Positions 11,791-23,432 of a stretch of DNA of 57,698 nucleotides are shown piece by piece. The stretch is from a virus (taxonomy: Duplodnaviria; Caudoviricetes), in IMG/VR virus record IMGVR_UViG_3300032053_000088, positions 1-57,698 of that record. The stretch is one strand, 5' to 3'. Each line of letters starts with the position of its first letter. The stretch's first letter is position 1. The position numbers were made by a program, and so were the translations under genes. Below the pieces are notes generated by a model. It had not been told where the DNA came from. It made no database searches and was given only the letters and a program-made list of their open reading frames with translations.

Positions 11791-11796
11791 TTTAAT

Positions 11797-11871
11797 GGGG
11801 ATATCTGTATAACGGTAATACGGTAGTTTTGCAGACTACAAATCGGCGTTCGATTCGCCGTATCTCCACCA
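11797..11871 (+). tRNA. tRNA-Ala(TGC)
   Basis: G3.U70, loop ttTGCag, CCA. Confidence 0.85.
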
Positions 11872-12050
11872 AACTTAACCAGAAGAGAAATCGTTTGGTT
11901 TTTGTTTATATCTTGGGATCGTAAAACCCCAGTGAGTTTTCACTCGTAGATATACCTAGAAAAAGATTTTTATATTTTTGTCCATATACTTATTTGTGGT
12001 GGCGATTGAGTATGCTGCCATTTTTATAAAACATAAAGAAAGGACAAAAA

Positions 12051-12203
12051 ATGTCAACATTGTTAGTAGGATTAGTATGTCTAGTAGTAGGTGCAGTCGG
12101 CGGCTGGGTCGCTTCATATTTGGTATTGAGAAACAATCCAAAAGTTAAGGGCAAAGTCGATGGCGTAGTTGGTGGTGTTGAAACCATCATCAAAAATAGA
12201 TAA
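12051..12203 (+). CDS. Small membrane protein (50 aa)
   Basis: MSTLLVGLVCLVVGAVGGWVASYLVL...; GAAAGGA upstream. Confidence 0.65.
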   Translation: MSTLLVGLVCLVVGAVGGWVASYLVLRNNPKVKGKVDGVVGGVETIIKNR

Positions 12204-12237
12204 TAACAAACAACACAGGCTCCGACAGGAGCCAACT

Positions 12238-12315
12238 GGTCATGTAGCCCAATTGGTAGGAGGCACTACTTTCAGGAAGTAGATAGCGTGAGTTCGAATC
12301 TCACCATGACCACCA
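12238..12315 (+). tRNA. tRNA-Leu(CAG), short variable loop
   Basis: ctact-ttCAGga-agtag, CCA. Confidence 0.85.
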
Positions 12316-12384
12316 TTTTATATCTTGACTTTTCTTTTTTCGCCTTTATATTTATTAGATGGAGAATTATTTTATTATACTCAT

Positions 12385-12834
12385 ATGAAAAAAAGTCAAT
12401 TGAAAGCATTAATTAAAGAAGTAGTTTCAGAAACAAGAAGACAAAGAGACGTAGTTAGACATGACTGGTTTAAAACATTTGCCTATTTCGAATCATTAGA
12501 AATTCCAGGGTTATCTACTGCTGATAATGAAGTTGAGATCACCGCTAATTTTGAATATGATTTTGATCCAGGCCAAAAATGGACTCGGGATTCTCCTGAA
12601 TTTCCACCATCCGTCGATATGTTGGATTCAGAGCCTATTAAAGTCGATGTATTTGGTGACGGTGGACGGTTGGTCGTTTCCAAAAAGTTTGATGAGTTAA
12701 ATGGCGAACAACAAAAAATAATTGGTGAGGCACTTGTATATTTCATGAAAGACAAAATCGGAAAACAACATCTTGAGGATACTTTTTGGGATATGAGAAA
12801 TAGTGCTTCCCAACGTTACGATCCCGAAGGTTAA
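12385..12834 (+). CDS. Hypothetical protein, possible internal virion protein
   Basis: MKKSQLKALIKEVVSE N-terminus; TATTTATT upstream. Confidence 0.75.
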   Translation: MKKSQLKALIKEVVSETRRQRDVVRHDWFKTFAYFESLEIPGLSTADNEVEITANFEYDFDPGQKWTRDSPEFPPSVDMLDSEPIKVDVFGDGGRLVVSKKFDELNGEQQKIIGEALVYFMKDKIGKQHLEDTFWDMRNSASQRYDPEG

Positions 12835-12907
12835 TTTTAACATTGACTTTCTCCAAATCTGTGGTATTATATCTCAAAAGGTTAACAACCTTGTTATAAT
12901 ATAAGTT

Positions 12908-13600
12908 ATGCCATCAGAACAACCAATGCCGTTTACAATGGCCGAAATAACGGCCATGAAAAATGATTTTTACAAATATTACCCCAAAGATTTTTCTCAT
13001 CCAGAAGATGAAGGTGTTTATCATTATAAGTGGATATCAGAGTGGGAACCCCTTATACAATATCTTGTTGGTGTAGATGATGTAGTTGGTGTAGAAATTG
13101 GAACTAATTATGGAGCATTCGCATCTTGGGCCTCTCGGAACGTTTTGACTGGTAAGAACACAATGCTCTATACCATCGATGTAAATTATAACAAATATAT
13201 ACTTCACAATTTAAAAAATCTACCCAATGTTACTTTTATACAAGGTGAAAGTGGTGATGTATTAAAAACTTTAACCCATAAAGGACAGAAAAAAGAATTT
13301 GCATATTTTGTTTATGTTGATGGTAATCACTTCGCTGCTAATGTGTTGGAAGATGCAGTATTAGGATTTTCTCTGTTAAAAGAGGATGGTTTAATTATAT
13401 TTGACGATTATGGTTGGGGGATTCATACGGAAGATGAATCAGTTAAGCCAAAGACAGGAGTGGATGCATTCTGCCACGGTTACAAAGGACATTATGATGT
13501 TGTAGCGACGGGGTGGCAAATATTTCTGCAAAAAAAGAAACACACATTTGATCCAAAGGAAATAGAAAATAACTATTATGGGATGAAACACTCGTTGTGA
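12908..13600 (+). CDS. Class I SAM-dependent methyltransferase (Methyltransf_24-like)
   Basis: VEIGTNYG, YVDGNH, IIFDDY motifs. Confidence 0.85.
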   Translation: MPSEQPMPFTMAEITAMKNDFYKYYPKDFSHPEDEGVYHYKWISEWEPLIQYLVGVDDVVGVEIGTNYGAFASWASRNVLTGKNTMLYTIDVNYNKYILHNLKNLPNVTFIQGESGDVLKTLTHKGQKKEFAYFVYVDGNHFAANVLEDAVLGFSLLKEDGLIIFDDYGWGIHTEDESVKPKTGVDAFCHGYKGHYDVVATGWQIFLQKKKHTFDPKEIENNYYGMKHSL

Positions 13601-13992
13601 AACCAAAATGTGAAAGATGTAAAGTAGATTTGGAACTTGTAGATGCTCACGAGCCGTGGTCGGATGAACACTATCAATGCCCTCAATGTGATGGAACGTA
13701 TAATATAGAAGAATTCTGTGAATTTTGTGGTTTGAGAACGATTACAAGGAATCATCACTTGACACCCAGAAGTAAAGGTGGTAAAGATACTGCTCTATGT
13801 TGTGAAAATTGTGAAAATTTCATTCATTCTACTTGGTCGCATAATGAACTAAGAGATATGTATAATAATGTTGAAACCATTGTTCAAAATGAAAAATTTC
13901 AGAAGTTTCTTAAGTGGAGATTGAAACAACCGACGACTGTTGTGTTCAAGTCGGATCGTGGTAACAATCGGTGTAAGAGAAAGTATAGTTAA
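13597..13992 (+). CDS. Zn-finger HNH family protein
   Basis: CxxC pairs, HHLTPRSKGG...CENCENFIH. Confidence 0.75.
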   Translation: MKPKCERCKVDLELVDAHEPWSDEHYQCPQCDGTYNIEEFCEFCGLRTITRNHHLTPRSKGGKDTALCCENCENFIHSTWSHNELRDMYNNVETIVQNEKFQKFLKWRLKQPTTVVFKSDRGNNRCKRKYS

Positions 13993-13993
13993 T

Positions 13994-14170
13994 ATGAATG
14001 ATGAATATAATGAAGACAGAGAGTGGTTGATTCGTGAAATCTATAGTTTGATAGATGAATTGGATAATAAAGAAAGAGAGATTGCTAATCTTTATACAAA
14101 AAAAGTTAAATATGAAAAAATACTTAAATTGTTAAATAAACAACAAAAGGTATCACGAAAAGGAAAATGA
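13994..14170 (+). CDS. Small coiled-coil hypothetical protein
   Basis: ATG after repeated GAAAGTATAGTT motif. Confidence 0.55.
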   Translation: MNDEYNEDREWLIREIYSLIDELDNKEREIANLYTKKVKYEKILKLLNKQQKVSRKGK

Positions 14171-14212
14171 TATAAAATACAAATACCGTGAGTAAACGAA
14201 AGTATAGTTGAT

Positions 14213-14458
14213 ATGACAAAAAAAATAAAAAATGTGTGGGTTATTGAAAAATTTTATAGAGAAGATCTCCTCGTTGGAGATTCATATAACGGAAATGGGT
14301 TATCATCAGTTTTAAACGATACTGTTGTCAAGTATCCAAATATATTTACGAATCGAAGAGATGCTAGAATTATTTTAACATCCTTAAGAAGAGCACAAAA
14401 AACTGGAGAAGTCCAAAAATATTATAAGTTTAAACTTAATAGATTTAAGAAAGTATAG
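14213..14458 (+). CDS. Hypothetical protein
   Basis: 81-aa ORF. Confidence 0.65.
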   Translation: MTKKIKNVWVIEKFYREDLLVGDSYNGNGLSSVLNDTVVKYPNIFTNRRDARIILTSLRRAQKTGEVQKYYKFKLNRFKKV

Positions 14459-14463
14459 TTGAT

Positions 14464-14598
14464 ATGAAAAAACTGACTAAAAAAGAAAAACAGATAGTTA
14501 AAGAGTTTCAAGAAGTATTGGAGAAACATAAAAAGTTGGGGTCGTTGAAACTGGCCACGTTGATTAGTCCGTGTTTTCCGATAAGAAAGGATGAATAA
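14464..14598 (+). CDS. Small hypothetical protein
   Basis: 44-aa ORF after repeated motif. Confidence 0.45.
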   Translation: MKKLTKKEKQIVKEFQEVLEKHKKLGSLKLATLISPCFPIRKDE

Positions 14599-14636
14599 TA
14601 TGACCAAAGATGTAACTGGAATGCCTAATCGATAAT

Positions 14637-14882
14637 ATGAATGAAGACGAAAAAATCACAATACGGGAAGTAAAAGAAGATGATTTTAGAAAAGGAATTC
14701 TTTCGGGAGAAGTTATACCACATGATGTCGAAATAATCATCAAGTTCAAAAATGGAAAAGTTATGAACAGTTTTGTATCTTGGGAAACAATATATACACT
14801 TTACAAATTTCACAACAAGTGTGCTGTAGGAGAAATTTACGAACTGATGATAGAAAATTCATTATTATCAAATGTGATGTGA
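14637..14882 (+). CDS. Hypothetical protein
   Basis: 81-aa ORF. Confidence 0.6.
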   Translation: MNEDEKITIREVKEDDFRKGILSGEVIPHDVEIIIKFKNGKVMNSFVSWETIYTLYKFHNKCAVGEIYELMIENSLLSNVM

Positions 14883-14890
14883 GGGGTAAT

Positions 14891-15106
14891 ATGAGAATAT
14901 TAAGACTTATAAAGATTTCATTCGATAGTTTAGAAAATCATCATCCGTGGGTTGAGGAAACAATAGCCTCGTTTTGTGATGATGAAAATGATACTGCTTA
15001 CGCTAAGGCAAAAAACCATATAAATAATATATCTGAAAAGGTATATGTCGGTTACGATTTAGAAGTGTATCCAAAATATAAGTTAATAGAAGAAACTGCG
15101 ATTTAA
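14891..15106 (+). CDS. Hypothetical protein
   Basis: GAGGGG upstream of ATG. Confidence 0.6.
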   Translation: MRILRLIKISFDSLENHHPWVEETIASFCDDENDTAYAKAKNHINNISEKVYVGYDLEVYPKYKLIEETAI

Positions 15107-15108
15107 AT

Positions 15109-15351
15109 ATGTTCTTTGTTTACATGGTTCTATGTTCCGATAAAACGTTATACACCGGATATACGAAAGATCTTGACAAACGTATCAAAGAACATAATGA
15201 AGGAAAACGAGGATCAAAATATACAAAATCTAGAAGACCAGTAAAGTTAATTTATAAAGAAAAATATTTAGATAAATCGTCTGCAATGAAAAGAGAGTAT
15301 CAGATTAAACAATTGAGTAAAAAAGAAAAGTTAAAGTTATTACACGATTAG
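15109..15351 (+). CDS. GIY-YIG nuclease, UPF0213 (YhbQ/YazA)-like
   Basis: FVYMVLCSDKTLYTGYT...GSKYTKSRRPV...AMKREYQIK. Confidence 0.88.
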   Translation: MFFVYMVLCSDKTLYTGYTKDLDKRIKEHNEGKRGSKYTKSRRPVKLIYKEKYLDKSSAMKREYQIKQLSKKEKLKLLHD

Positions 15352-15375
15352 AAAAAAGAAAGGTAAAAGAATATA

Positions 15376-15663
15376 ATGAATCCAAACATTCCAAGTTTTA
15401 ATCCGAGTGTTCCTCCACAGAGACAACAGCAAGTAAGAATTCAACTTAATAACACTCAGCCAGTTGTTTGTAGTAAATGTGGTGGTCAAGTATTTGCCGA
15501 AGGTGTGGTTTTTCGTAAAGTTAGTCGCTTGTTGACTGGTCAACCTGATGATGGGGTAATGCCTATTCCAGCCTTTTATTGTGTTAAATGCCAAGAGCCA
15601 TTGGAAGAAATGCTTCCTGACGAATTGAAGGAAGAATTGAACAAGGGTAAGATCATTAGTTAA
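15376..15663 (+). CDS. Zn-ribbon phage protein
   Basis: Two CxxC motifs. Confidence 0.75.
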   Translation: MNPNIPSFNPSVPPQRQQQVRIQLNNTQPVVCSKCGGQVFAEGVVFRKVSRLLTGQPDDGVMPIPAFYCVKCQEPLEEMLPDELKEELNKGKIIS

Positions 15664-15667
15664 AATC

Positions 15668-16246
15668 ATGAATATGGTGGAGTTTACTATTTCCAATTAT
15701 AAAGTATCCCAACAAAAACAATGGGATATTTTATTATTTTTATATAAAAAATATTTACATAAAGATAAAATTTGGCATTTCTTTTATGAACTTTATACAA
15801 ACATAATTCGATGTTCTAGAAGATTCGAAGGTAAAGTTCAACGATATTTAAAAAAACAAAAAGTGGATTTTGAAGTAAAGAATGAATGGGTAGATAATCA
15901 AGAAATTACCAGAAAATATCAAGATCAATTTCAGAATGTATTTCATGCTAATTCTGAAATTATTATGAGAATGGCTCTTGATCCAACATATAAATCTATG
16001 GATATTTTTTTTGTTGGTGATAGATTTATTCATTGTTTTTTGTTAAATTGTAATTATATTGCTAAATCATGGAAATCGGATTCAAATGGAAAAGATCATT
16101 GGGAATCTTATTTAACACACGTAATTGCAGATCAAAGAAGAAAATATATTGAATTTCTTCAAGATGAACTTTCAAAATCAACATGTAAACCAGAAGATTA
16201 CGATTTAGATTATTTTGAAAAAAAGGATAAAAACGATGAAACATAA
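15668..16246 (+). CDS. Hypothetical protein
   Basis: 192-aa ORF. Confidence 0.7.
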   Translation: MNMVEFTISNYKVSQQKQWDILLFLYKKYLHKDKIWHFFYELYTNIIRCSRRFEGKVQRYLKKQKVDFEVKNEWVDNQEITRKYQDQFQNVFHANSEIIMRMALDPTYKSMDIFFVGDRFIHCFLLNCNYIAKSWKSDSNGKDHWESYLTHVIADQRRKYIEFLQDELSKSTCKPEDYDLDYFEKKDKNDET

Positions 16247-16415
16247 AACTACAAGAAAACAAAGAAAAGAAACTGCTAATAAATCATATAAATCCTTTTA
16301 CGAAAGTCAGTTAGGATTATCTAGACGGAAGAGCGCGATTCGCCAGTGGGTTCCACCTGTTAAAGAAAAAACCGAAGAAAAAGTTGAAAATACCCAAGAA
16401 GTTAAGGAATTGTAA
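16236..16415 (+). CDS. Small basic hypothetical protein
   Basis: AGGA upstream of ATG. Confidence 0.5.
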   Translation: MKHKTTRKQRKETANKSYKSFYESQLGLSRRKSAIRQWVPPVKEKTEEKVENTQEVKEL

Positions 16416-16462
16416 AAAATTACTTGACGGGTTTTAAAATTGGTGTATATTTATAATTGAAT

Positions 16463-16536
16463 GGCAGTATCGTTCAACAGAAGGACCGGCGAATCATAAT
16501 CGCAAAACATCCGTGCGACTCGGATTACTGCTACCA
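16463..16536 (+). tRNA. tRNA-Met/Ile2(CAT)
   Basis: Loop atCATaa, CCA; promoter at 16424-16451. Confidence 0.75.
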
Positions 16537-16539
16537 AAT

Positions 16540-16614
16540 GGACTGATGGTGAAATGGATATCACGCAACCCTGCGGAGGTTGAGTTCCGGGTTCGACTCC
16601 CGGTTGGTCCGCCA
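16540..16614 (+). tRNA. tRNA-Arg(GCG)
   Basis: caacc-ctGCGga-ggttg, canonical T-arm, CCA. Confidence 0.88.
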
Positions 16615-16622
16615 GATTTTGT

Positions 16623-16952
16623 ATGGAAAAAGAAAAAGTGGTTATATATACGATTACTTCTCTTGTTGAAGATAATAATGGTGATATAGTGGAAGATAGG
16701 GTGGTGGGATGGTATTCGGACCTTAAAATTGCCAAACAATGTGTGGAAGAAGATTGGGCAGATTTTGATGAGGCTGGATATTACAATTATGTTGTAATTG
16801 AACGGAACGTTGAAGGTTTGTATAACATAAATGGATTTGAACTTGACATACAGACCGAATGGTGGTATAAGTTTGATGACGACAACAATAAATGGGTTGT
16901 GTGTGAAAAACCCGATTGGTCAGTAGGTATAGTTGGGTGGGGATTGGGTTAG
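16623..16952 (+). CDS. Hypothetical protein
   Basis: 109-aa ORF between tRNAs. Confidence 0.75.
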   Translation: MEKEKVVIYTITSLVEDNNGDIVEDRVVGWYSDLKIAKQCVEEDWADFDEAGYYNYVVIERNVEGLYNINGFELDIQTEWWYKFDDDNNKWVVCEKPDWSVGIVGWGLG

Positions 16953-16960
16953 AATTTTAA

Positions 16961-17044
16961 GCCGAAGTGGCACCAGTGGCGACTGCGCCGCTTTTGTAAA
17001 GCGGAATACAAACATCGGGGGTTCGAGTCCCTCCTTCGGCTCCA
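16961..17044 (+). tRNA. tRNA-Thr(TGT), enlarged variable region
   Basis: ccgct-ttTGTaa-agcgg; G1-C72, C2-G71. Confidence 0.8.
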
Positions 17045-17136
17045 TTTTTCTATAGAAACTAAGGTTAGTTGAAGGAACCTTAAACTAAAAATTCAACGCT
17101 TCTTTGGTATTTTGTTGTTGAAATGAAAATACCAAT

Positions 17137-17210
17137 GCCAGGTTGATGTAAAAGTAGCCTGTTAGTTTCGTAAACTAAATGAGTCGGAGCGTTACCGACA
17201 CTTGGCTCCA
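17137..17210 (+). tRNA. tRNA-Thr(CGT)
   Basis: ttagt-ttCGTaa-actaa; non-canonical T-loop agcgtta. Confidence 0.8.
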
Positions 17211-17276
17211 GTTTTTTCTTGACATTTTTCTGTTATGATGTATATTAAATAGTAGTAAAGAAATAAAGGAAAATAA

Positions 17277-17456
17277 ATGAAAAATATAGTAAGTATGTTA
17301 GTCGGTTTACTTCTTCTCGTGTCTATTGTAGGATGTGCAACTACCCCGCCAGCGCCAATGATTGAGAGTTCAGAGTATAGTAAGTCTCTTAAGTTTCAGT
17401 CGGATTTGATGAATGGAAATCCGAACGTTGTTCCTGTTCCTGCTTGGGTTCAGTAA
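17277..17456 (+). CDS. Small lipoprotein (59 aa)
   Basis: MKNIVSMLVGLLLLVSIVGC lipobox; promoter 17219-17246. Confidence 0.7.
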   Translation: MKNIVSMLVGLLLLVSIVGCATTPPAPMIESSEYSKSLKFQSDLMNGNPNVVPVPAWVQ

Positions 17457-17610
17457 TATGTGATTGATGTTTAGGAAGTTATAAAAAGCCAAAAATAGTT
17501 CTTGACAAACAATGGAGATGTGGTAAAGTATGTATGGTAAAAGAAAAAAGACCAAAAAAAGTCAAAAAAAGATTTGACAAAAACAGATTTGAATGATATA
17601 TATAGTTAGT

Positions 17611-17697
17611 ATGACAATGTGGCATAGACAATTTAAATATAGTGAATCACCTTCTATTGAAGATAATAGAGGTATCGGCGGAGGAGGAACCGCGTAA
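17611..17697 (+). CDS. Putative attenuator leader peptide MTMWHRQFKYSESPSIEDNRGIGGGGTA
   Basis: Short ORF between promoter (TTGACA 17574) and terminator; its 3' end carries the antiterminator strand. Confidence 0.6.
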   Translation: MTMWHRQFKYSESPSIEDNRGIGGGGTA

Positions 17698-17757
17698 GAA
17701 AGTAGAAGATTTTGCCCTCCAACGCCGATCTGAAAAGGTCGGCGTTTTTTGTTTTTT
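17674..17757 (+). promoter_or_regulatory. Attenuator: antiterminator (17674-17687 with 17716-17729) versus terminator (17721-17757)
   Basis: atcggcg-ga-ggagg pairs with cctcc-aa-cgccgat; terminator aacgccgatct-gaaa-aggtcggcgtt plus T-tract. Confidence 0.65.
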
Positions 17758-17758
17758 G

Positions 17759-17941
17759 GAGTGGTTTTGGTATGATACTATTTGAACCGAGAATCAAGTA
17801 TCCGTAGAGGCGAGCCGTAGGGAATGTCGGAGACGCCAGTTCAAGTGGGGACACTTGGGCCACCAACGTAGGTCAAAAAACCCTAATATTGATAGTTGTA
17901 TAATTTTCGGGTATTCTATGGAACAACCTGTCACCGCACTC
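17759..17941 (+). ncRNA. Putative multibranch structured RNA
   Basis: gagtg/cactc closure; helices gatac/gtatc, ggcg/cgcc, caagtg/cacttg, tgatag/ctgtca. Confidence 0.4.
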
Positions 17942-17994
17942 TCAGGCCATAGATTTCGAACGTTTCGTGTGTAACGTCCCGAAGACACACAAAT

Positions 17995-18068
17995 AGGCGG
18001 TTCGTATAATGGTATTACTCTGGTCTCCAGAACCAAGAATGTGGGTTCGATTCCTACACCGCTTGCCA
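17995..18068 (+). tRNA. tRNA-Trp(CCA)
   Basis: Loop ctCCAga, G73, CCA. Confidence 0.85.
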
Positions 18069-18073
18069 ACTTC

Positions 18074-18133
18074 TGCGCTCTACATAGTGAAACTCTATGG
18101 TAAAGCCGAGGCGCATTTCTCAAAAATATCGGC
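18074..18133 (+). ncRNA. Pseudoknot RNA, copy 1
   Basis: Homologous to 24011-24068 with compensatory changes. Confidence 0.65.
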
Positions 18134-18139
18134 AAATAT

Positions 18140-18172
18140 AGTCCTGTAATTTAACGGTAGAATATCTTTTTA
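18140..18172 (+). pseudogene. 5' tRNA fragment before endonuclease gene
   Basis: agtcctg-ta-attt-aacggt-agaat acceptor strand and D-arm without a 3' half. Confidence 0.45.
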
Positions 18173-18215
18173 TTGGTTGTTTGGAAGAAAGCATACTACT
18201 TATTAATGTAATGGT

Positions 18216-19019
18216 ATGAATAAAGAAGAATTAATAAAAGATATTGAAAATAACTTAAGTAGTTATGATATAGCTAAAAAATATAATAAAAGTCAAGGTT
18301 CTATATCATATTGGATTAAAAAATATAAAATAAAAACCAAGTTCAATAAAATAGGACAAAAGAAGTTAAATTGTTTAGATCCTCAAAAAAATAAAATAAA
18401 TTTAGAATATGATTGGAATTGGAAGGAAATTCAAAAAGATCATAATGTCGGTATGTCTTGGGATGAATTAACAAAAAAGTATAAAATTTGTAGGGTTACT
18501 TTACAAAAAGCAAAAAATCAAAAACTTGTTCAGTTTCGTAATCATAAAGAATCTATGAATTTTATTCATGAAATTGGTAAAGTTGATTATTCTCCATACA
18601 GAACCGAATCGTTTAGAAGAAAAATGTCAAAATTTGGAGGATTTAAAGATAAAGCAAGTGGAAGAGTTAAAGGGTCATATTATATTAAAAAAGATGATTC
18701 GAAAGTATGGTTACAGGGATCGTGGGAAATAAAATTTGCTACATTTTTAGATAAAAAAAATATACAATGGGATCGAAACAAAATAGGATATAGATATATT
18801 TTTGAAGGGAAGGATCGAAAATATTTCCCAGATTTTTTCTTAAAAGAATTCAATCTTTATGTGGAAGTAAAAGGAAGAGAAAAAGAAATGGATTATGAAA
18901 AATGGAAACAGTTTCCACTTAAACTTTTGATAGTAAAAAGAAATGATATATCAAATTTAGAAAAGTGGTATAATAACTATTTACGGCCAAATGGTGTAAC
19001 TGGTAACACTCGCTCTTGA
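18216..19019 (+). CDS. PD-(D/E)XK free-standing endonuclease (TnsA-N-like) with N-terminal HTH
   Basis: GSWE...YFPDFFL...YVEVKG. Confidence 0.8.
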   Translation: MNKEELIKDIENNLSSYDIAKKYNKSQGSISYWIKKYKIKTKFNKIGQKKLNCLDPQKNKINLEYDWNWKEIQKDHNVGMSWDELTKKYKICRVTLQKAKNQKLVQFRNHKESMNFIHEIGKVDYSPYRTESFRRKMSKFGGFKDKASGRVKGSYYIKKDDSKVWLQGSWEIKFATFLDKKNIQWDRNKIGYRYIFEGKDRKYFPDFFLKEFNLYVEVKGREKEMDYEKWKQFPLKLLIVKRNDISNLEKWYNNYLRPNGVTGNTRS

Positions 19020-19059
19020 TGTGGGCGGTATATAGGTTCGATTCCTGTTTTGGCTACCA
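18985..19059 (+). tRNA. tRNA-Ile(GAT)
   Basis: cgctc-ttGATgt-gggcg; overlaps end of endonuclease ORF. Confidence 0.8.
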
Positions 19060-19063
19060 ATTT

Positions 19064-19162
19064 AGGCGAGAGGGGTTGGAAGTATGACCTGTAGCTACAT
19101 AACTGGGTAACTTCAAGTCGAGATAGACTTCAATGGAACGTACGTGAAATCCTGTTAACGCA
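19064..19162 (+). ncRNA. Putative structured RNA sharing ACGTGAAATCC with 20585-20680
   Basis: Shared 11-mer and similar 5' end. Confidence 0.4.
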
Positions 19163-19169
19163 TTTTAAT

Positions 19170-19243
19170 TCCCGCCTGATGTAATAGTAGCCTGAGTGAC
19201 TGTTAATCACTATGTCTTCGTGCGATTCGAAGGGTGGGAGCCA
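19170..19243 (+). tRNA. tRNA-Asn(GTT)
   Basis: U1-A72, G73, loop ctGTTaa. Confidence 0.85.
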
Positions 19244-19248
19244 ATTTT

Positions 19249-19334
19249 GAGTGTGTGACCGATAAAGCGTAGAGGTAGCGCGGCCTTTGATGAAGGCTCG
19301 GAATACGTAGGTTCAATTCCTATCATACTCACCA
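19249..19334 (+). tRNA. Atypical tRNA (GAT-like loop on extended anticodon arm)
   Basis: GAGTGTG/CATACTC, T-arm, CCA; about 4 extra nt before anticodon stem. Confidence 0.5.
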
Positions 19335-19335
19335 A

Positions 19336-19437
19336 TTTTCAACAGAATCCCGTATAATGGAAATGTTCAGATAATTAGTATATTCTGGAACATACGGATC
19401 GGAAGATTACTAAATACACCGTTAATTCTGTTGAAAA
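19336..19437 (+). ncRNA. Stem-closed structured RNA
   Basis: 13-bp ttttcaacagaat/attctgttgaaaa terminal stem; possible ttagta/tactaa loop pairing. Confidence 0.5.
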
Positions 19438-19444
19438 CTTTTTC

Positions 19445-19599
19445 GCTCGCCCTTCGGAAGTATCTGTTGACTCCCAGATCGTGCCAGAGGACCGCCCTCC
19501 GAATCTGTTGGTGGACGGCTGCTAATCACAGTGAAGTTATCATGTGGAGAAATGCCGATTTTGCACAGATAGGCAGATCGACACTGCCGGCGAGCATCA
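19445..19599 (+). ncRNA. tRNA-like chimeric RNA (acceptor and T-arm with about 120-nt insert)
   Basis: GCTCGCC/GGCGAGC; ggcag-atcgaca-ctgcc. Confidence 0.55.
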
Positions 19600-19604
19600 T
19601 TTTA

Positions 19605-19693
19605 GTAGAATAAGGACATCTAAGCATTGCAATGCCAAGCGGAAAGGAACCGCTTAATGATGGGATGAGGTGCAATTCCCCACCGTATTCTAC
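19605..19693 (+). ncRNA. tRNA-like structured RNA
   Basis: gtagaata/tattctac closure; T-loop-like ggtgcaattcc. Confidence 0.4.
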
Positions 19694-19708
19694 AATATAA
19701 GATATTAT

Positions 19709-19783
19709 GGTGTTCATGGTGTATGGGCAGCATTTAAGCCTGTGGAGCTTAAGGAGCGATTTCAATAATATCGGCGGAACGGG
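19709..19783 (+). pseudogene. Degenerate tRNA-His(GTG)
   Basis: Intact D and anticodon arms (taagc-ctGTGga-gctta); broken T-arm and acceptor. Confidence 0.55.
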
Positions 19784-19842
19784 TTTTGTTCCCGCTAGTC
19801 GTATGAGTCATGGAGTCATGTTTCGGTATTATATTTTTGTAT

Positions 19843-19920
19843 GGAGTAGGTAGCATAATTGGTTAATGCCCTTGATTGTGAGTCAAGCAGATGCGGATTC
19901 GAATTCCGTTCTACTCCCCA
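19843..19920 (+). tRNA. tRNA-His(GTG)
   Basis: G-1:C73, cttga-ttGTGag-tcaag, CCA. Confidence 0.88.
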
Positions 19921-20031
19921 ACTTTCAAATCCGAAGGAACAGATTGCGAATTCTGTTGAGTTATTCTCTCTCATAGTGTAAAGTAGCACCTTGAACATCG
20001 GAGATTCTGGAACAAAAGAGAAAATATTTTT

Positions 20032-20294
20032 TCATACACCAGTCAACGAGATTCCGTAACCGGAAAAGTTGAAGGTGAAAGAAGAGGTTGTAGATTTTAC
20101 TCTAAAGTAAATGGAATGATATACGACTCGGACATCAATGCTGCTATCAACATTGGAAAAATGTCCAAACATCCCGTATCACAGACCACAAATCTGACTT
20201 ATGGGCAGGCGTCAGTCAATACGCCACACGAATATAAGTCCCCGCTCCTCGGGGCCGTTCAAGCACCTATCCCTTTAGGGTAGGTGTTGTTGAC
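20032..20294 (+). mobile_element. tnpB: IS200/IS605-family tnpB 3' remnant with right end
   Basis: Frame SYTSQ...DSDINAAINI...GQASVNTP; right-end hairpin cacctatcc-cttta-gggtaggtg followed by TTGAC. Confidence 0.8.
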
Positions 20295-20296
20295 AT

Positions 20297-20497
20297 TCGA
20301 TGTATAGGGTATGACGGGCGGAGAAAATCCCGTAAGTTGTGGTCCGTATAGGGATACCCACATTTCTCTAGTTGTCAGGAAATCTTCGAACTTTTCTGAC
20401 ACACGATTTAGCTAAACTAATATAGTGAGTGGCCGGACACTTAAAATGAGGCACTTCACAGTGTATATAACCTGTAGAAAATAGCAGCTATATTCGA
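20297..20497 (+). ncRNA. Multibranch structured RNA (about 200 nt)
   Basis: tcga.gtatag/ctatat.tcga closure; at least 5 internal hairpins. Confidence 0.5.
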
Positions 20498-20505
20498 TTT
20501 TTCAT

Positions 20506-20581
20506 GGCCTGCTCATCTATCGGCTAGGATATCAGGTTTTCAACCTGGAGAGCGTGGGTTCGATTCCCCGGCAGGCTACCA
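20506..20581 (+). tRNA. tRNA-Glu(TTC)
   Basis: tcagg-ttTTCaa-cctgg, CCA. Confidence 0.82.
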
Positions 20582-20584
20582 ATT

Positions 20585-20680
20585 TAGACGAAAAGGATAG
20601 GCGACTCCTACCGGCCGTTCGAATCGGTAAGGTAAACGGGAAGAGTTGCAACGTCGCACGTGAAATCCCTGAGTAGTCTA
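20585..20680 (+). ncRNA. Structured RNA with loop-E-like GAA/AGUA internal loop
   Basis: tagac/gtcta, ggat/atcc and gcgac/gtcgc stems. Confidence 0.5.
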
Positions 20681-20711
20681 TTTTTGTATAATATTTTAAT
20701 ATTTATAGTAT

Positions 20712-21080
20712 ATGAGAATACTATTTTTATCATTATTTGTCGGTTTGTTTTTAATAACGACTGCGTGCAACAGTGGAAACAATGTTGAGTTGAATTACTC
20801 TAAAATGGAAAAACAATACGTTGAATTAACTGAATATTATGGAATAGCAGTTGATGAAGGATTCAAAAATGAAAAAGAAGCCAGCGAATTCGTAAGACAT
20901 TATTTACGAACACGAGATTCAATAAATTATTATAACCATCCTTTAAGAGATAGAAGATATGACGTTTCTGTATTGTGGAATATGAAATGGGAATTAAACG
21001 AAGCATGTAAACATACTAATTCGTTAATGAATAATTTAGATCCGGAATACGTCAAAAAACATCCTAAGTATTCTAAATAA
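20712..21080 (+). CDS. Putative lipoprotein
   Basis: Signal peptide with ITTAC lipobox. Confidence 0.75.
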   Translation: MRILFLSLFVGLFLITTACNSGNNVELNYSKMEKQYVELTEYYGIAVDEGFKNEKEASEFVRHYLRTRDSINYYNHPLRDRRYDVSVLWNMKWELNEACKHTNSLMNNLDPEYVKKHPKYSK

Positions 21081-21086
21081 GTTTTC

Positions 21087-21165
21087 GGGTCTGTGGTGTT
21101 TAATGGTATAACATGTCAGCCTTTTAAGCTGAACGATGTCGGTTCGACTCCGACCGGGCCCACCA
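21087..21165 (+). tRNA. tRNA-Lys(TTT)
   Basis: tcagc-ctTTTaa-gctga, CCA. Confidence 0.9.
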
Positions 21166-21168
21166 AAA

Positions 21169-21302
21169 ATTTGTAATACTAATAGTTAGTGCGATATCTT
21201 GACTTCCACCAAGCCGATCTACTGGCCATAGACGGAAGCAAAGTTGGGCAGCATGAATTAATTATTCAATAAGTCTGTAAAACCTTGGATAGTATTACAA
21301 AT
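21169..21302 (+). ncRNA. Stem-closed structured RNA
   Basis: 13-bp atttgtaatacta/tagtattacaaat terminal stem. Confidence 0.5.
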
Positions 21303-21314
21303 AATTAGAAAAAT

Positions 21315-21390
21315 GCTCTCTTAGCTTAATTGGAAGAGCGGTTGTCTTCGAAACAATCAGGTACAGGTTCGAATCCTGTAGGGAGTACCA
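21315..21390 (+). tRNA. tRNA-Arg(TCG)
   Basis: gttgt-ctTCGaa-acaat, CCA. Confidence 0.88.
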
Positions 21391-21394
21391 TTTT

Positions 21395-21468
21395 GGCTCT
21401 GAAGCTCAGTGGCGAGCAGTCGGCCGTTAACCGACTGGAATTGGGTTCGATTCCCATCGGAGCCTCCA
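21395..21468 (+). tRNA. tRNA with GTT anticodon, C33, G1-C72 and U73
   Basis: gtcgg-ccGTTaa-ccgac; GGCTCTG/CGGAGCC-T-CCA. Confidence 0.75.
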
Positions 21469-21479
21469 ATTTAAAAAAT

Positions 21480-21558
21480 GCACTCGTAGTCTAACTGGAT
21501 AGGCACCTGACTTCTAATCAGGATTTATGGTTGGGTTCGAATCCCCCCGAGTGTACCA
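21480..21558 (+). tRNA. tRNA-Arg(TCT)
   Basis: cctga-ctTCTaa-tcagg, CCA. Confidence 0.82.
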
Positions 21559-21664
21559 TTTTAAAGGTGTAAATTATTTGTTTCCATAAGTTTGTTGATA
21601 TTTATATATGCTTACAAAAAATGTAAGTAGTTTTGAAAACTCAACAAAAGAGGGATGAAATAAT

Positions 21665-22204
21665 ATGACTTATACTGTAAATCTGACATGGACTCCAAGT
21701 CCGGTCGAACAAAAAGTTACATCGTATAATGTTTTCATGGCGGCAGGTGGTGGAATGGAAACATTTATAGGATCTACAGCGGAACCACATTATTCTATAG
21801 TAGTTGATCAAGGATCGGTTTATCATTTTAAAGTTCAAGCAGTCAACTTAGCCGGTGGTGGTGTGATATCTAACGAAGTAGATACGCCATCTTTGCCAAC
21901 TAAAGCTGCAACTCCAGTAATGGTTATTACTGGAAATGACGTAACGTTGAATTGGGATGTTAATCCTACAGAACAACTGGTAACTTCATATAAAGTTCAT
22001 ATGAATGTTAATGGTGGAATGACCATGGAAGCTGTAGAAGTATTGGGAACAAGTCATACTTTAGTAGATTTGGTTCCTGGTGTATATAACTTCTTTGTTC
22101 AGGCCGTTAATTTGGCCGGCGCCGGTGCATTATCTGATGCCGCAGTTACCCCATCATTACCAAGTGCTCCACTGGATTTAGTATTAACAATCGCCGTTAG
22201 CTAA
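21665..22204 (+). CDS. Tandem fibronectin type III domain protein
   Basis: Two repeats V.L.W..P.EQ.VTSY.V...Y.F.VQAVNLAG. Confidence 0.8.
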   Translation: MTYTVNLTWTPSPVEQKVTSYNVFMAAGGGMETFIGSTAEPHYSIVVDQGSVYHFKVQAVNLAGGGVISNEVDTPSLPTKAATPVMVITGNDVTLNWDVNPTEQLVTSYKVHMNVNGGMTMEAVEVLGTSHTLVDLVPGVYNFFVQAVNLAGAGALSDAAVTPSLPSAPLDLVLTIAVS

Positions 22205-22308
22205 AAATAATTAAATGAAGTTAAAACGACCAACTGCTCCTACAAATGTTAGATTAACTATTACTATTAGTAAATAATACGAATTAGTTGGTAAAATAAC
22301 AACAATTA

Positions 22309-22340
22309 GAGGCGCATGAGGGTGCGCCTTTTCTTTTTTC
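22309..22340 (+). terminator. Intrinsic terminator
   Basis: aggcgca/tgcgcct stem plus T-tract. Confidence 0.6.
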
Positions 22341-22343
22341 TAT

Positions 22344-22419
22344 CGTCTCGTAGCTCATTCAGTTAGAGCAACGTCTTGATATATCAAGGTGGTTGGGGCA
22401 GAGTCAACCGGGACGACCA
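22344..22419 (+). pseudogene. tRNA with aberrant anticodon arm (possibly Ile-GAT derived)
   Basis: Intact acceptor, D and T arms and CCA; cttga-tata-tcaag replaces the normal arm. Confidence 0.55.
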
Positions 22420-22424
22420 ATTTC

Positions 22425-22500
22425 GGTCATGAGGACAAACAGCAGAGTCGTCTCCCTGTCACGGAGAAAATAGCGAGGGCAGCACTCGTCTTGACCGCCA
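22425..22500 (+). tRNA. tRNA-Asp(GTC)
   Basis: tctcc-ctGTCac-ggaga, G73; T-loop ggcagca. Confidence 0.78.
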
Positions 22501-22506
22501 TTTTAC

Positions 22507-22593
22507 TGGGGCGTGGTGTAACTGGTAACACAGCTCGCTTTGAACGAGAAGACGGAATCGCTTGTGTGGGTTCGAATCCTACTGCCCCAGCCA
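22507..22593 (+). tRNA. tRNA-Gln(TTG) with long variable arm
   Basis: U1-A72, G73, loop ctTTGaa, about 16-nt variable region. Confidence 0.78.
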
Positions 22594-22596
22594 ATT

Positions 22597-22671
22597 TGGG
22601 ACTGGTGTATGTCTTAAGCACGCTACCCGGTTTAGGTAGAAGACGGTGTATTAAATCCCGGTCCTGAGCCA
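22597..22671 (+). pseudogene. Degenerate tRNA
   Basis: D and anticodon arms (ctacc/ggtag), broken T-arm, CCA. Confidence 0.45.
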
Positions 22672-22673
22672 AT

Positions 22674-22765
22674 TTGAATCATACACACCGTTCTCAGAAA
22701 GATATACGGGGCTTACGAAAGTAAGAAATGCGAAACTCCACGTAACGGGAATCTATATGATTCAA
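22674..22765 (+). ncRNA. Stem-closed structured RNA
   Basis: ttgaatcata/tatgattcaa terminal stem; cttac-gaaa-gtaag hairpin. Confidence 0.5.
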
Positions 22766-22772
22766 TCTATTT

Positions 22773-22832
22773 AAGATGCCTTCCAGCAACCAAAAAAACT
22801 TGCCTTATACGCAAACCAAAAACCGGCATCTT
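22773..22832 (+). ncRNA. Skipping-rope-like RNA bearing an isolated anticodon-like hairpin (TAT)
   Basis: aagatgcc/ggcatctt stem, CAGCAA, A/C-rich linkers, ttgc-ctTATac-gcaa. Confidence 0.5.
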
Positions 22833-22866
22833 GTTTTTATACAAAATTTATGATATTTATAGTCAT

Positions 22867-23142
22867 ATGAATTTTACTATAACAATTGAAGATAGTTCCG
22901 ATAGAAAAAACAAATCGTTTCATCCAAGAGGACATTCTGATTGGGTCAATGTAAAGGATGAACTTAAAAAATTTATTAAAAAAGAGTTAAAGTTGACTAA
23001 TAAAGAACTTAATGATTTGAAAATTTTGTGTAGAGAATGTAATAATATTACTGGCACCGTCTTGATTAAAGGAATTATATTAAGTAATTCGAGTGATGCT
23101 CGTGATAAACTTCTTAAAAAAATTCACAATAAAAAGATTTAA
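22867..23142 (+). CDS. Hypothetical protein
   Basis: TATTTATA just upstream of ATG. Confidence 0.7.
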   Translation: MNFTITIEDSSDRKNKSFHPRGHSDWVNVKDELKKFIKKELKLTNKELNDLKILCRECNNITGTVLIKGIILSNSSDARDKLLKKIHNKKI

Positions 23143-23143
23143 T

Positions 23144-23223
23144 GGCTCTATGGTGTTTAACGGTAATAGCATAACTGCCTCTTAAGCAGCTAGGTTCGGG
23201 TTCGAATCCCGGTGGGGCCACCA
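23144..23223 (+). tRNA. tRNA-Lys(CTT)
   Basis: ctgc-ctCTTaa-gcag, CCA. Confidence 0.88.
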
Positions 23224-23238
23224 ATTTAAAATTATTTA

Positions 23239-23331
23239 TTATTACATACGGACAAGGCTTAAGGATCGTTGAAGACCAATGCAAATTTGGTATGTATAAA
23301 CGTAGGTGGGTAGCGAATGGTGATGTAATAA
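23239..23331 (+). ncRNA. Stem-closed structured RNA
   Basis: ttattacat/atgtaataa terminal stem. Confidence 0.4.
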
Positions 23332-23342
23332 GAGTTTAAAAT

Positions 23343-23430
23343 GGTGCGTTATCCCGTAGGGGTAGCGGTATGCGCTGTAAACGCATTGTCTTAAATGGCT
23401 CGGGTGGTTCAACTCCATCACGCACCACCA
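23343..23430 (+). tRNA. tRNA-Tyr(GTA)
   Basis: atgcg-ctGTAaa-cgcat, long variable arm, CCA. Confidence 0.88.
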
Positions 23431-23432
23431 AT

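What the first reader, a model, noticed from the sequence alone, without database searches (positions are those of the whole stretch)
17574..17757. Multi-amino-acid leader-peptide attenuator at the head of the phage tRNA/ncRNA array
Seen: TTGACA promoter, a near-leaderless 28-codon ORF (MTMWHRQFKYSESPSIEDNRGIGGGGTA), then a strong terminator (17721-17757) directly before the densest tRNA array. Nucleotides 17674-17687 (codons IGGGG) pair over 12 of 14 nt with 17716-17729, which includes the terminator's left arm, so the two folds exclude each other. Codons 2-12 are 11 different amino acids, 17 of 20 occur overall, and the three Ser codons (AGT, TCA, TCT) match three different isoacceptors. Nearly every codon is read by a tRNA encoded in this window. 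Known: trp/his-type attenuators use this logic but with runs of one amino acid. Inference: a stall at any early codon (starvation or host anticodon-nuclease attack) leaves the antiterminator free and turns on the phage tRNAs, making a general tRNA-pool sensor.
Basis: partly seen in the sequence, partly recalled or inferred. Interest (0 to 1): 0.85.

Follow-up and report, generated by a model that had tools for sequence, protein, structure and literature searches.

The report
Phage leader-ORF attenuator before ncRNA/tRNAs
A short open reading frame, an antiterminator and a strong terminator form what looks like a translation-sensing transcription switch, conserved in three lineages of tRNA-rich phage-like contigs just upstream of an unknown small RNA and tRNA genes, which would let the phage tie these RNAs to how well ribosomes are working.

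Summary
A TTGACA promoter (17574), a 28-codon ORF (17611-17697) and the strongest terminator of the region (17721-17757) are there, and 17674-17687 pairs with 17716-17729 (0 of 1000 shuffles as good).

Two other lineages, L002 and L007, have the same layout with different sequences. Each has a promoter, a near-leaderless ORF (46 and 30 codons) and a segment ending 6-8 nt before the stop that copies the terminator's right arm. In all three the nascent RNA folds into the antiterminator, which is more stable than the terminator. Among 61 and 148 terminator-like hairpins, no other combines this pairing with such an ORF. The E. coli thrL attenuator behaves the same way in the same test.

My reading is a ribosome-mediated attenuator, confidence 0.6.

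- Amino-acid diversity is not conserved.
- Leader codons are no better covered by phage tRNAs than ordinary genes (20 of 28 against 69%).
- Six tRNA genes lie upstream, so it is not the head of the array.

The conserved downstream partner is a two-hairpin ncRNA (17802-17885). There is no expression data. It is a new variant of a known kind.

The parts
17502..17529 (+). Upstream promoter-like site (TTGACA, 16 nt, TAAAGT, with TG). It may be a tandem promoter feeding the same leader.
   Evidence: 10 of 12 matches. Function not shown.
17574..17602 (+). Leader promoter: A-rich tract, -35 TTGACA (17574-17579), 17-nt spacer, -10 TATATA (17597-17602). Predicted start about 17609.
   Evidence: Not listed by the consensus scan because the -10 lacks T6. 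It is homologous in position to the L002 promoter 5167-5194 (11 of 12), and window and L002 share a 19-nt run around the -35. L026 has the same promoter with TATAAT.
17611..17697 (+). Leader ORF of 28 codons plus TAA, near-leaderless, with no Shine-Dalgarno motif.
   Evidence: An ORF with this geometry appears in 1.1% of shuffles. Only 7 of 40 genes of the window have an SD-like motif.
17651..17672 (+). Hairpin P1 inside the ORF, directly 5' of the antiterminator strand. It may be an RNA polymerase pause hairpin (inferred).
   Evidence: -6.7 kcal/mol. A hairpin sits in the same place in L002 (-8.9) and L007 (-21.8).
17674..17687 (+). 5' strand of the antiterminator (segment A). It copies the terminator's right arm and ends 8 nt before the stop codon.
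17716..17729 (+). 3' strand of the antiterminator: 5 nt upstream of the terminator plus its left arm.
   Evidence: duplex -23.4 kcal/mol, 0 of 1000 shuffles as good. (antiterminator domain 17670-17731, -22.6 kcal/mol, with the stop codon inside the helix).
17721..17757 (+). Intrinsic terminator: hairpin 17721-17746 followed by a T run.
   Evidence: 11 pairs, 6 G-C; -17.4 kcal/mol.
17802..17885 (+). Conserved two-hairpin ncRNA of unknown family and the first product of read-through. Conserved single-stranded flanks are CGUAGAGGCG and CACCAACG(A)UAGGUCAA.
   Evidence: No Rfam family at E up to 10.
17995..18068 (+). tRNA-Trp (CCA), the first tRNA gene downstream. A tRNA-Trp also follows in L002.

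Best explanation
This is a ribosome-mediated (leader-ORF) transcription attenuator.

How it would work:
1. Transcription starts about 17609, and the near-leaderless 28-codon ORF is translated.
2. The last third of the ORF, through the stop codon, is the 5' half of a long irregular antiterminator hairpin. Its 3' half is the left arm of the terminator plus 5 nt upstream.
3. The antiterminator is made before the terminator's right arm exists, and it is the more stable of the two.
4. If no ribosome is near the end of the ORF, because it never loaded or stalled upstream, the antiterminator forms. RNA polymerase then reads through into the conserved ncRNA (17802-17885), tRNA-Trp and the genes beyond.
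5. If a ribosome runs to the stop codon, it covers or melts the 5' strand. The terminator then forms and transcription stops at 17747-17757.

The output is therefore high when leader translation is poor and low when it is efficient. It is a sensor of translation capacity with no amino-acid specificity.

Shown: the sequence elements, their mutual exclusion, their significance, and their conservation with covariation in three lineages.
Inferred: the start site, translation of the ORF, the kinetic competition, hairpin P1 acting as a pause site, and the physiological signal.
For: 1. Pairing beyond chance in each of three lineages. Best duplex of leader against left arm:
- window: -23.4 kcal/mol, 0 of 1000 shuffles as good
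- L002: -14.7, 3 of 1000
- L007: -16.5, 0 of 1000
In each case the best partner is the segment just 5' of the ORF stop.

2. The sequences differ, but segment A tracks the right arm in each lineage. In the window AUCGGCG/GGAGG pairs with CCUCC/CGCCGAU. In L002 UCGGAGGUUG pairs with CAACCACCGA. In L007 UCUGAUGG pairs with CCGUCAGA.

3. The nascent transcript, cut before the right arm, folds into the antiterminator at minimum free energy in 3 of 3.

4. The antiterminator domain is more stable than the terminator: -22.6, -18.0 and -14.9 against -17.4, -15.6 and -12.5 kcal/mol. The stop codon lies inside the antiterminator helix in all three.

5. The geometry is conserved.
- ATG 2, 4 and 8 nt from the predicted start.
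- Stop 8, 8 and 6 nt after A.
- Stop to end of terminator hairpin 51, 55 and 54 nt.
- Such an ORF arises in 1.1%, 0.41% and 0.46% of shuffles.

6. Specificity.
- Of 61 terminator-like hairpins in window, L003, L007 and L010, the four with z of -3.5 or lower are exactly the leader terminators, and the next is -1.6.
- In the 250-kb genome of L002, 4 of 148 have z below -3. Only the leader one has a nearby partner and an ORF stop.

7. Positive control. The same script on E. coli thrL gives z -5.2, 0 of 500 shuffles as good, with the partner at the thrL stop.

8. No consensus promoter lies between the terminator and the ncRNA in the window or in L002. The ncRNA there most simply depends on read-through.

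9. SD-less, promoter-adjacent starts are the norm in this phage: 33 of 40 genes have no SD-like motif. Leaderless leader peptides are documented in Deinococcus deserti (PMC4007540, passages read).

10. The peptide is not a conserved protein. The three peptides are unrelated. An exhaustive HMMER search with the 46-aa L002 peptide found itself and two repeat-type hits only.
Against: - There is no expression, start-site, termination or ribosome data of any kind.
- The window's -10 is sub-consensus and is not listed by the scan.
- 5' UTRs of 2-8 nt are short but not strictly leaderless.
- There is no cluster of regulatory codons and no consistent anti-antiterminator (1:2) pairing: 10, 178 and 210 of 1000 shuffles are as good.
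- At equilibrium the full transcript prefers the terminator. A simulated early-stalled ribosome flips the fold to the antiterminator only in L007, not in the window or L002. The switch must therefore be kinetic.
- L007 has two promoter-like sites (9 and 10 of 12) between the terminator and the ncRNA, so read-through is not needed there. The window has a TGgTATGAT stretch at 17768-17776 that could be an extended -10 (read, not scored).
- Only three lineages were found, and the L002 signal is modest (3 of 1000; rank 4 of 148 in its genome).
- The ORF-geometry criteria were set after seeing the data.
Confidence: 0.6

Rival explanations
1. General tRNA-pool sensor. The leader is composed to sample many amino acids and phage-decoded codons, so that depletion of any tRNA (starvation or an anticodon nuclease) switches on the phage tRNA array.
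For: - It uses the same anatomy as the best explanation, in which any stall upstream of the last 5 codons or so would free the antiterminator.
- The window leader has 17 of 20 amino acids, P about 0.03-0.04. L002 has all 20 in 46 codons, or 19 after the first Met, P about 0.08-0.12.
- tRNA genes lie downstream in all three lineages.
- Phage tRNAs are known to counter tRNA-cleaving defences (PMC10264068 and PMC11464382, search listing and abstract starts only).
Against: - L007's leader has only 13 amino acids in 30 codons, P about 0.8-0.9.
- 20 of 28 leader codons are read by window tRNAs against 69% of codons in ordinary ORFs, P = 0.48. Asp and all five Gly codons have no window tRNA.
- Six tRNA genes lie upstream of the element.
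- The conserved downstream neighbour is an ncRNA, while the tRNAs that follow differ: Trp in the window and L002, Val in L007.
Confidence: 0.2
2. Translation-independent attenuator. The same terminator/antiterminator switch is set by a phage or host protein, a small RNA or tRNA, or a metabolite that binds the P1/A region. The ORF is incidental.
For: - The alternative structures and a hairpin directly 5' of segment A are conserved.
- The peptides are unrelated.
- There is no Shine-Dalgarno motif.
- There are no regulatory codons.
Against: - The ORF geometry recurs in 3 of 3 lineages, at 0.4-1.1% chance each.
- The stop codon is always inside the antiterminator helix.
- No sequence motif is shared by all three leaders that could form a binding pocket. 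L007 shares no alignable leader sequence with the others.
- No Rfam family, T-box included, matches at E up to 10 in any of the three.
Confidence: 0.12
3. A separate small transcription unit: a small RNA or small-protein gene that simply ends at its own terminator. The ncRNA and tRNAs are driven by their own promoters, and the upstream complement of the terminator arm has another role or none.
For: - L007 has two promoter-like sites between the terminator and the ncRNA.
- The window has a possible extended -10 at 17768-17776.
- Terminated attenuator RNAs and leader peptides can act in trans in Sinorhizobium (PMC6614838 and PMC7298713, abstract starts only).
Against: - A pairing that excludes the terminator is found only at these terminators, among 61 and 148 candidates.
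- The antiterminator is more stable than the terminator.
- No consensus promoter lies downstream in the window or L002.
- The peptide is not conserved.
Confidence: 0.08

Closest known systems
Leader-peptide transcription attenuators of amino-acid operons (thrL, trpL, hisL, pheL)
   Same: - A promoter-proximal short ORF.
- An intrinsic terminator before the regulated genes.
- An antiterminator whose 5' strand lies at the end of the ORF and whose 3' strand is the terminator's left arm.
- My scan gives thrL z -5.2 with the partner at its stop codon, against -6.0, -4.9 and -3.5 here.
   Different: - No run of codons for one amino acid.
- No consistent 1:2 anti-antiterminator, so the untranslated state should read through rather than terminate.
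- Near-leaderless start.
- The regulated products are an ncRNA and tRNAs in a phage, not biosynthetic enzymes.
Leaderless leader peptides upstream of tRNA-synthetase and amino-acid genes in Deinococcus deserti (PMC4007540, passages read)
   Same: The leader peptide starts at or next to the transcription start, in a genome where leaderless mRNAs are common. The predicted role is transcription attenuation of translation-related genes.
   Different: Those peptides are rich in the cognate amino acid and sit upstream of protein-coding genes in a bacterium. Here there is no enrichment, and the setting is a phage tRNA/ncRNA region.
Ribosome-stalling attenuators of ABC-F resistance genes (vmlR, PMC9226507; msrD, 10.1101/2021.11.29.470318; listing and abstract starts only)
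   Same: A short leader ORF with a terminator/antiterminator switch. It reports a general problem with translation rather than the supply of one amino acid.
   Different: Those respond to drug-induced stalling at defined leader positions and control a ribosome-protection protein. Here no stall motif is known and the products are RNAs.
pheM leader of the E. coli pheST operon
   Same: Leader-peptide attenuation controlling a component of the translation apparatus.
   Different: It has a run of Phe codons, it is specific for one amino acid, and the product is a protein.
T-box riboswitch
   Same: A terminator/antiterminator switch that reports tRNA status. The window has a GGAGGAACCGCG stretch that loosely recalls the T-box sequence (recalled motif).
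   Different: No match to any Rfam family, T-box included, at E up to 10 in three lineages. The leader is only about 110 nt before the terminator, and the stretch is not kept in L002 or L007.

Membership tests
Leader-peptide (ribosome-mediated) transcription attenuator | Short ORF at the 5' end of the transcript, upstream of the terminator | tested here: met
   ORFs of 28, 46 and 30 codons start 2-8 nt after the predicted start sites. The chance of this geometry is 0.4-1.1% each. Start sites are predicted, not measured.
Leader-peptide (ribosome-mediated) transcription attenuator | Intrinsic terminator between the leader ORF and the regulated genes | tested here: met
   Hairpins of -17.4, -15.6 and -12.5 kcal/mol followed by U runs. 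The ncRNA starts about 45-55 nt downstream in the window and L002.
Leader-peptide (ribosome-mediated) transcription attenuator | Antiterminator that excludes the terminator and overlaps the 3' end of the leader ORF | tested here: met
   with covariation across three lineages.
Leader-peptide (ribosome-mediated) transcription attenuator | Cluster of codons for the regulating amino acid | tested here: not met
   None of the three leaders has a run or shared enrichment. The four Gly codons of the window lie inside the pairing strand and are not kept in L007.
Leader-peptide (ribosome-mediated) transcription attenuator | Anti-antiterminator (1:2) pairing or pause hairpin that synchronises ribosome and polymerase | tested here: inconclusive
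   A hairpin lies directly 5' of segment A in 3 of 3. Pairing of segment A with upstream sequence is not consistently beyond chance: 10, 178 and 210 of 1000 shuffles are as good.
Leader-peptide (ribosome-mediated) transcription attenuator | Leader is translated and read-through responds to ribosome position | not testable with these tools
   Needs reporters, coupled in vitro transcription-translation, Term-seq or Ribo-seq.
T-box riboswitch | Stem I with specifier loop and the conserved T-box antiterminator, as in the Rfam model | tested here: not met
   No match to any Rfam family at E up to 10 in the window, L002 or L007.
ABC-F / antibiotic-responsive ribosome-stalling attenuators | Leader ORF with a terminator/antiterminator switch, upstream of a resistance or ribosome-protection gene | tested here: not met
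   The switch is present, but downstream lie an ncRNA, tRNA-Trp and a 267-aa protein with only weak HTH/DUF7487 matches. No ABC-F gene.
Any described RNA family (Rfam 15) | Score at or above a family's gathering threshold | tested here: not met
   Only tRNAs and the tmRNA reach threshold in the window. The best sub-threshold hits over the leader are terminator-driven sRNA look-alikes at E 0.9-7.7.

The most novel reading that the evidence does not exclude
tRNA-rich large phages carry a dedicated sensor of translation capacity. A near-leaderless leader ORF, when translated efficiently, shuts off a promoter-proximal terminator switch. When host translation falters, through ribosome shortage, starvation or tRNA-cleaving defence, the switch opens. 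It then induces a conserved small RNA and downstream phage tRNAs as a countermeasure. That small RNA has an 8-9-bp helix followed by a conserved single-stranded ACCA stretch, which looks like a tRNA acceptor end.
Probability: 0.25. Interest if true: 0.85.

Novelty: new variant of a known kind. Interest (0 to 1): 0.7.

Why it matters
Leader-peptide attenuation is a textbook mechanism. It is known for amino-acid operons, some tRNA-synthetase genes and some resistance genes. My four full-text searches found no paper that links it to phage tRNA or ncRNA genes.

If real, it would show three things:
- Phages regulate their own translation-related RNAs by feedback from ribosome performance.
- An attenuator can work with no amino-acid specificity and from a leaderless start.
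- The unknown ncRNA is probably translation-related, because it is induced when translation is poor. That gives a functional hint for it.

It also gives a compact, testable part of about 190 nt that reports translation stress.

Tried and rejected
1. T-box or riboswitch idea. Rfam at E up to 10 on the window, L002 and L007 gave only terminator-driven sRNA look-alikes. Rejected.

2. Codon-diversity and tRNA-coverage signals. Not conserved and not enriched.

3. Trp-style 1:2 pairing. Not consistent.

4. More relatives through neighbouring proteins.
- The 109-aa protein found only L002.
- The 59-aa lipoprotein-like ORF found none.

5. More relatives through DNA patterns.
- L004, L006, L008, L009, L012, L013 and L014-L018 are chance matches in G+C-rich or coding DNA.
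- The promoter 18-mer gave 48 loci, of which only L003 (the same phage as L002) and L026 were relevant.
- L026 belongs to a 37-kb provirus without the ncRNA motif.

6. GenBank phages. Only tRNA-Trp matches.

7. Expression data.
- No RNA holder listed.
- Laid DNA contigs were identical over the leader, so they gave no natural variants to test covariation.
- Stretches without cover in X5, X7 and X9 say nothing.

8. MAFFT of the three switch regions (A4) did not put the pairing strands in common columns. I did not use the count of structure pairs and give per-sequence pairings instead.

9. Other attenuators of this kind.
- None in the window, L003, L007 or L010.
- In the 250-kb genome G001, three other hairpins have z below -3. 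They are weak (-8.6 to -10.2 kcal/mol), their partners lie 59-119 nt away, and no ORF stop is nearby. I take them as false positives.

10. The second strong terminator (22308-22331), with a 20-codon ORF before it, is not among the 25 lowest z values.

11. Peptide homologues. Only the query itself and two multi-stretch hits, P0004 and P0005, which I did not follow.

12. Equilibrium folding with simulated ribosome footprints. It flips to the antiterminator only in L007.

Full report
CONTEXT. The window is an IMG/VR virus record of 57,698 bases. CheckV estimates it at about 16% complete, which would imply a much larger phage genome. G+C is about 30-42%. It carries a tmRNA and 30 tRNA genes between 11.7 and 34.8 kb: 24 found by ARAGORN and 6 more by Rfam. 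Only 7 of 40 checked genes have a Shine-Dalgarno-like motif, and many have a -10-like box a few bases before the ATG. Short or absent 5' leaders are therefore normal in this phage.

THE OBSERVATION.
- The -35 TTGACA is at 17574-17579, followed by a 17-nt spacer and TATATA at 17597-17602.
- The ORF runs 17611-17697 and gives MTMWHRQFKYSESPSIEDNRGIGGGGTA*.
- The terminator hairpin is 17721-17746, followed by a T run. It is the top terminator-like site in 11000-30500.
- The segment 17674-17687 pairs with 17716-17729 in 12 of 14 positions.
- The best duplex between the whole leader and the left-arm region is this one, at -23.4 kcal/mol. Shuffles give -10.1 +/- 2.2, and 0 of 1000 are as good.

Three caveats apply.
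- The -10 lacks T6, so the consensus scan does not list this promoter. It does list a second one at 17502-17529.
- Six tRNA genes lie upstream, so this is not the head of the array.
- The overall fold of 17609-17760 is not unusually stable, z -1.45. That is expected for a switch.

RELATIVES. GenBank phages share only the tRNA-Trp.

The neighbouring 109-aa protein led to one distant relative. This is L002, on a 250-kb IMG/VR contig, with 45% identity over the best segment and 50% in the alignment. L002 has the same layout:
- a promoter at 5167-5194 (11 of 12)
- an ORF at 5205-5345 of 46 codons
- a terminator at 5370-5398
- then a block that shares CGTAGAGGCG and CACCAACG(A)TAGGTCAA with window 17803-17876

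A pattern built from that block found a third lineage in metagenomes: L007, L010 and L011, which are near-identical to one another. L007 has a promoter-like site at 7577-7604, an ORF at 7620-7712 of 30 codons, a terminator at 7738-7764, and the ncRNA about 170 nt further on.

All other pattern hits were chance matches.

A 1553-nt contig in run X3 joins the same promoter to a tRNA-Trp across 378 unrelated bases. At least one more relative therefore exists that I could not read.

THE SWITCH IS CONSERVED BY STRUCTURE, NOT SEQUENCE. In each lineage the best partner of the terminator's left arm is the segment just before the ORF's stop codon:
- Window: AUCGGCG..GGAGG pairs with CCUCC..CGCCGAU.
- L002: UCGGAGGUUG pairs with CAACCACCGA, at -14.7 kcal/mol, with 3 of 1000 shuffles as good.
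- L007: UCUGAUGG plus flanks pairs with CCGUCAGA, at -16.5 kcal/mol, with 0 of 1000 as good.

The terminator stems differ among the three, and the upstream segment changes in parallel.

Window and L002 keep exactly 51 nt between TATCGG and the loop CTGAAAAG.

Cut before the right arm, the nascent RNA folds into the antiterminator in 3 of 3. As an isolated domain the antiterminator is more stable than the terminator: -22.6, -18.0 and -14.9 against -17.4, -15.6 and -12.5 kcal/mol. The stop codon lies inside the antiterminator helix each time. A hairpin sits directly 5' of the pairing strand in all three.

THE ORF GEOMETRY IS CONSERVED. The ATG lies 2, 4 and 8 nt from the predicted start. The stop comes 8, 8 and 6 nt after the pairing strand. 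Stop to end of terminator hairpin is 51, 55 and 54 nt. In dinucleotide shuffles such an ORF appears in 1.1%, 0.41% and 0.46% of cases. The criteria were chosen after seeing the data, so the product overstates the case.

The peptides are unrelated. An exhaustive search with the 46-aa peptide found only itself and two repeat-type hits. What is kept is the act of translation to a fixed point, not the product.

SPECIFICITY AND A CONTROL. I scanned every terminator-like hairpin for an upstream complement of its left arm.
- In the window, L003, L007 and L010 (61 hairpins), the four lowest z values are the leader terminators: -6.0, -5.1, -4.9 and -3.5. The next is -1.6.
- In the whole 250-kb genome of L002 (148 hairpins), 4 have z below -3. 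The three others are weak hairpins with distant partners and no ORF stop.
- The same script on the E. coli thr leader gives z -5.2, 0 of 500 shuffles as good, with the partner at the thrL stop codon.

So the phage elements look like a textbook attenuator by this measure.

MECHANISM. A ribosome that reaches the stop codon covers 8 of the 14 nt of the window's pairing strand, taking a footprint from 15 nt before the stop, and unwinds the helix through the stop codon. The terminator can then form. A ribosome that never loads, or that stalls further upstream, leaves the antiterminator free, and polymerase reads on. I found no consistent upstream partner for the pairing strand. Unlike trp, the untranslated state should therefore read through.

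At equilibrium the terminator wins in the full transcript. A simulated early stall flips the fold only in L007. The decision must be kinetic, and this is inferred.

No consensus promoter lies between the terminator and the ncRNA in the window or L002. L007 has two promoter-like sites there.

WHAT IS REGULATED. The constant downstream neighbour is an ncRNA of about 85 nt with two hairpins that show compensatory changes. It has invariant single-stranded flanks and no Rfam match. Its second helix is followed by a conserved ACCA stretch that recalls a tRNA acceptor end; this is my reading and is untested.

The tRNAs beyond differ: Trp in the window and L002, Val in L007. The next strong same-strand terminator in the window is at 22308. 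Read-through could therefore reach tRNA-Trp, Ile, His, Glu, Lys, Arg, Asn and Arg, unless internal promoters and processing dominate.

High amino-acid diversity is marginal in the window (P about 0.03-0.04), weak in L002 (about 0.1) and absent in L007 (about 0.8-0.9). 20 of 28 leader codons are read by window tRNAs, against 69% of 8784 codons in 35 ORFs, P = 0.48. The leader is therefore not visibly tuned to the tRNA set. The anatomy makes it a general sensor of leader translation. Whether tRNA supply is the natural signal is open.

COMPARISON AND NOVELTY. It works like the thr/trp class and like ribosome-stalling attenuators of resistance genes. It shares its leaderless start with predicted leader peptides of Deinococcus deserti (PMC4007540, passages read).

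It fails two defining features of the classical family: a regulatory codon cluster and a clear 1:2 pairing. Its targets are RNAs in a phage.

Four full-text searches found no report of attenuation upstream of phage tRNA or ncRNA genes. Supplements were not available, and subscription journals are not covered. I rate it a new variant of a known kind.

VERDICT.
- Observation: confirmed.
- Attenuator architecture: supported by comparative evidence, confidence 0.6.
- 'Multi-amino-acid tRNA-pool sensor' details: not supported.
- Interest: 0.7.

Noticed in passing
window 17802-17885; L002 5452-5535; L007 7936-8010: A conserved ncRNA of about 85 nt with two hairpins that show compensatory changes. 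It has invariant flanks, CGUAGAGGCG on the 5' side and CACCAACG(A)UAGGUCAA on the 3' side, and no Rfam match. The second helix is followed by a single-stranded ACCA stretch, like a tRNA acceptor end. It occurs once in the window and once in the 250-kb relative.
   Followed up: partly
window 17886-17994; L007 8020-8290: The stretch between the ncRNA and the next tRNA has inverted repeats (CTATGG...CCATAG and GTGTGT...ACACAC). It shares a short TGTAAC..GAAGA similarity with L007. It may be a second small RNA.
   Followed up: no
window, 40 gene starts: 33 of 40 genes have no Shine-Dalgarno-like motif. Many have a -10-like box 6-8 nt before the ATG, and three early genes (1398, 2044, 2634) share TAGAGTATATTC-like boxes. 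This suggests widespread leaderless or SD-independent initiation and an SD-poor host.
   Followed up: partly
window 7077-7475: A phage-encoded tmRNA at 108 bits, with tag peptide AKLNRLANVDFAFDMNAEVAEAVA.
   Followed up: no
window 11706, 16463, 20506, 23556, 25026, 33925: Six tRNA genes found by Rfam but missed by default ARAGORN. Relaxed ARAGORN calls Arg-CCG, Met-CAT, Glu-TTC, Cys-GCA and Gln-CTG. The gene at 25026 got no call, and I read its anticodon by eye as GAA (Phe). No Asp or Gly tRNA was found in the window.
   Followed up: partly
window 19166-19330: The stretch between tRNA-Ile and tRNA-His is tRNA-like. At a relaxed threshold ARAGORN calls a tRNA-Asn-like gene and a tRNA-like gene with a four-base anticodon. 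Rfam gives a partial tRNA match at 19266-19323 with E 0.22.
   Followed up: partly
window 22216-22331: A 20-codon ORF (MKLKRPTAPTNVRLTITISK) followed by the second-strongest terminator, just upstream of tRNA-like sequence and tRNA-Gln. It shows no significant antiterminator pairing in my scan.
   Followed up: partly
window 40893-42761: A PhoH-like ATPase interrupted by an intein with a LAGLIDADG endonuclease. A free-standing GIY-YIG domain protein lies at 15109-15351.
   Followed up: no
L026 1703-1830: A 37-kb provirus record carries almost the same promoter (TTGACA, the same 17-nt spacer with three changes, TATAAT), here driving a tRNA gene directly with no leader.
   Followed up: no
run X3, contig record 2 (1553 nt), laid on window 17565-17590 and 17993-18069: An unseen relative in a sediment metagenome has the identical 26-nt promoter stretch, 378 unrelated bases, then a tRNA-Trp with 11 differences. 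The loose end after it resembles the tRNA-Thr start that follows tRNA-Trp in L002.
   Followed up: no
L002 5608-6020: In the relative, an ORF that I take by eye to be an HNH-type endonuclease, with its own strong promoter (5573-5600), sits between the ncRNA and tRNA-Trp. It is absent from the window at that place. No family search was run on it.
   Followed up: no
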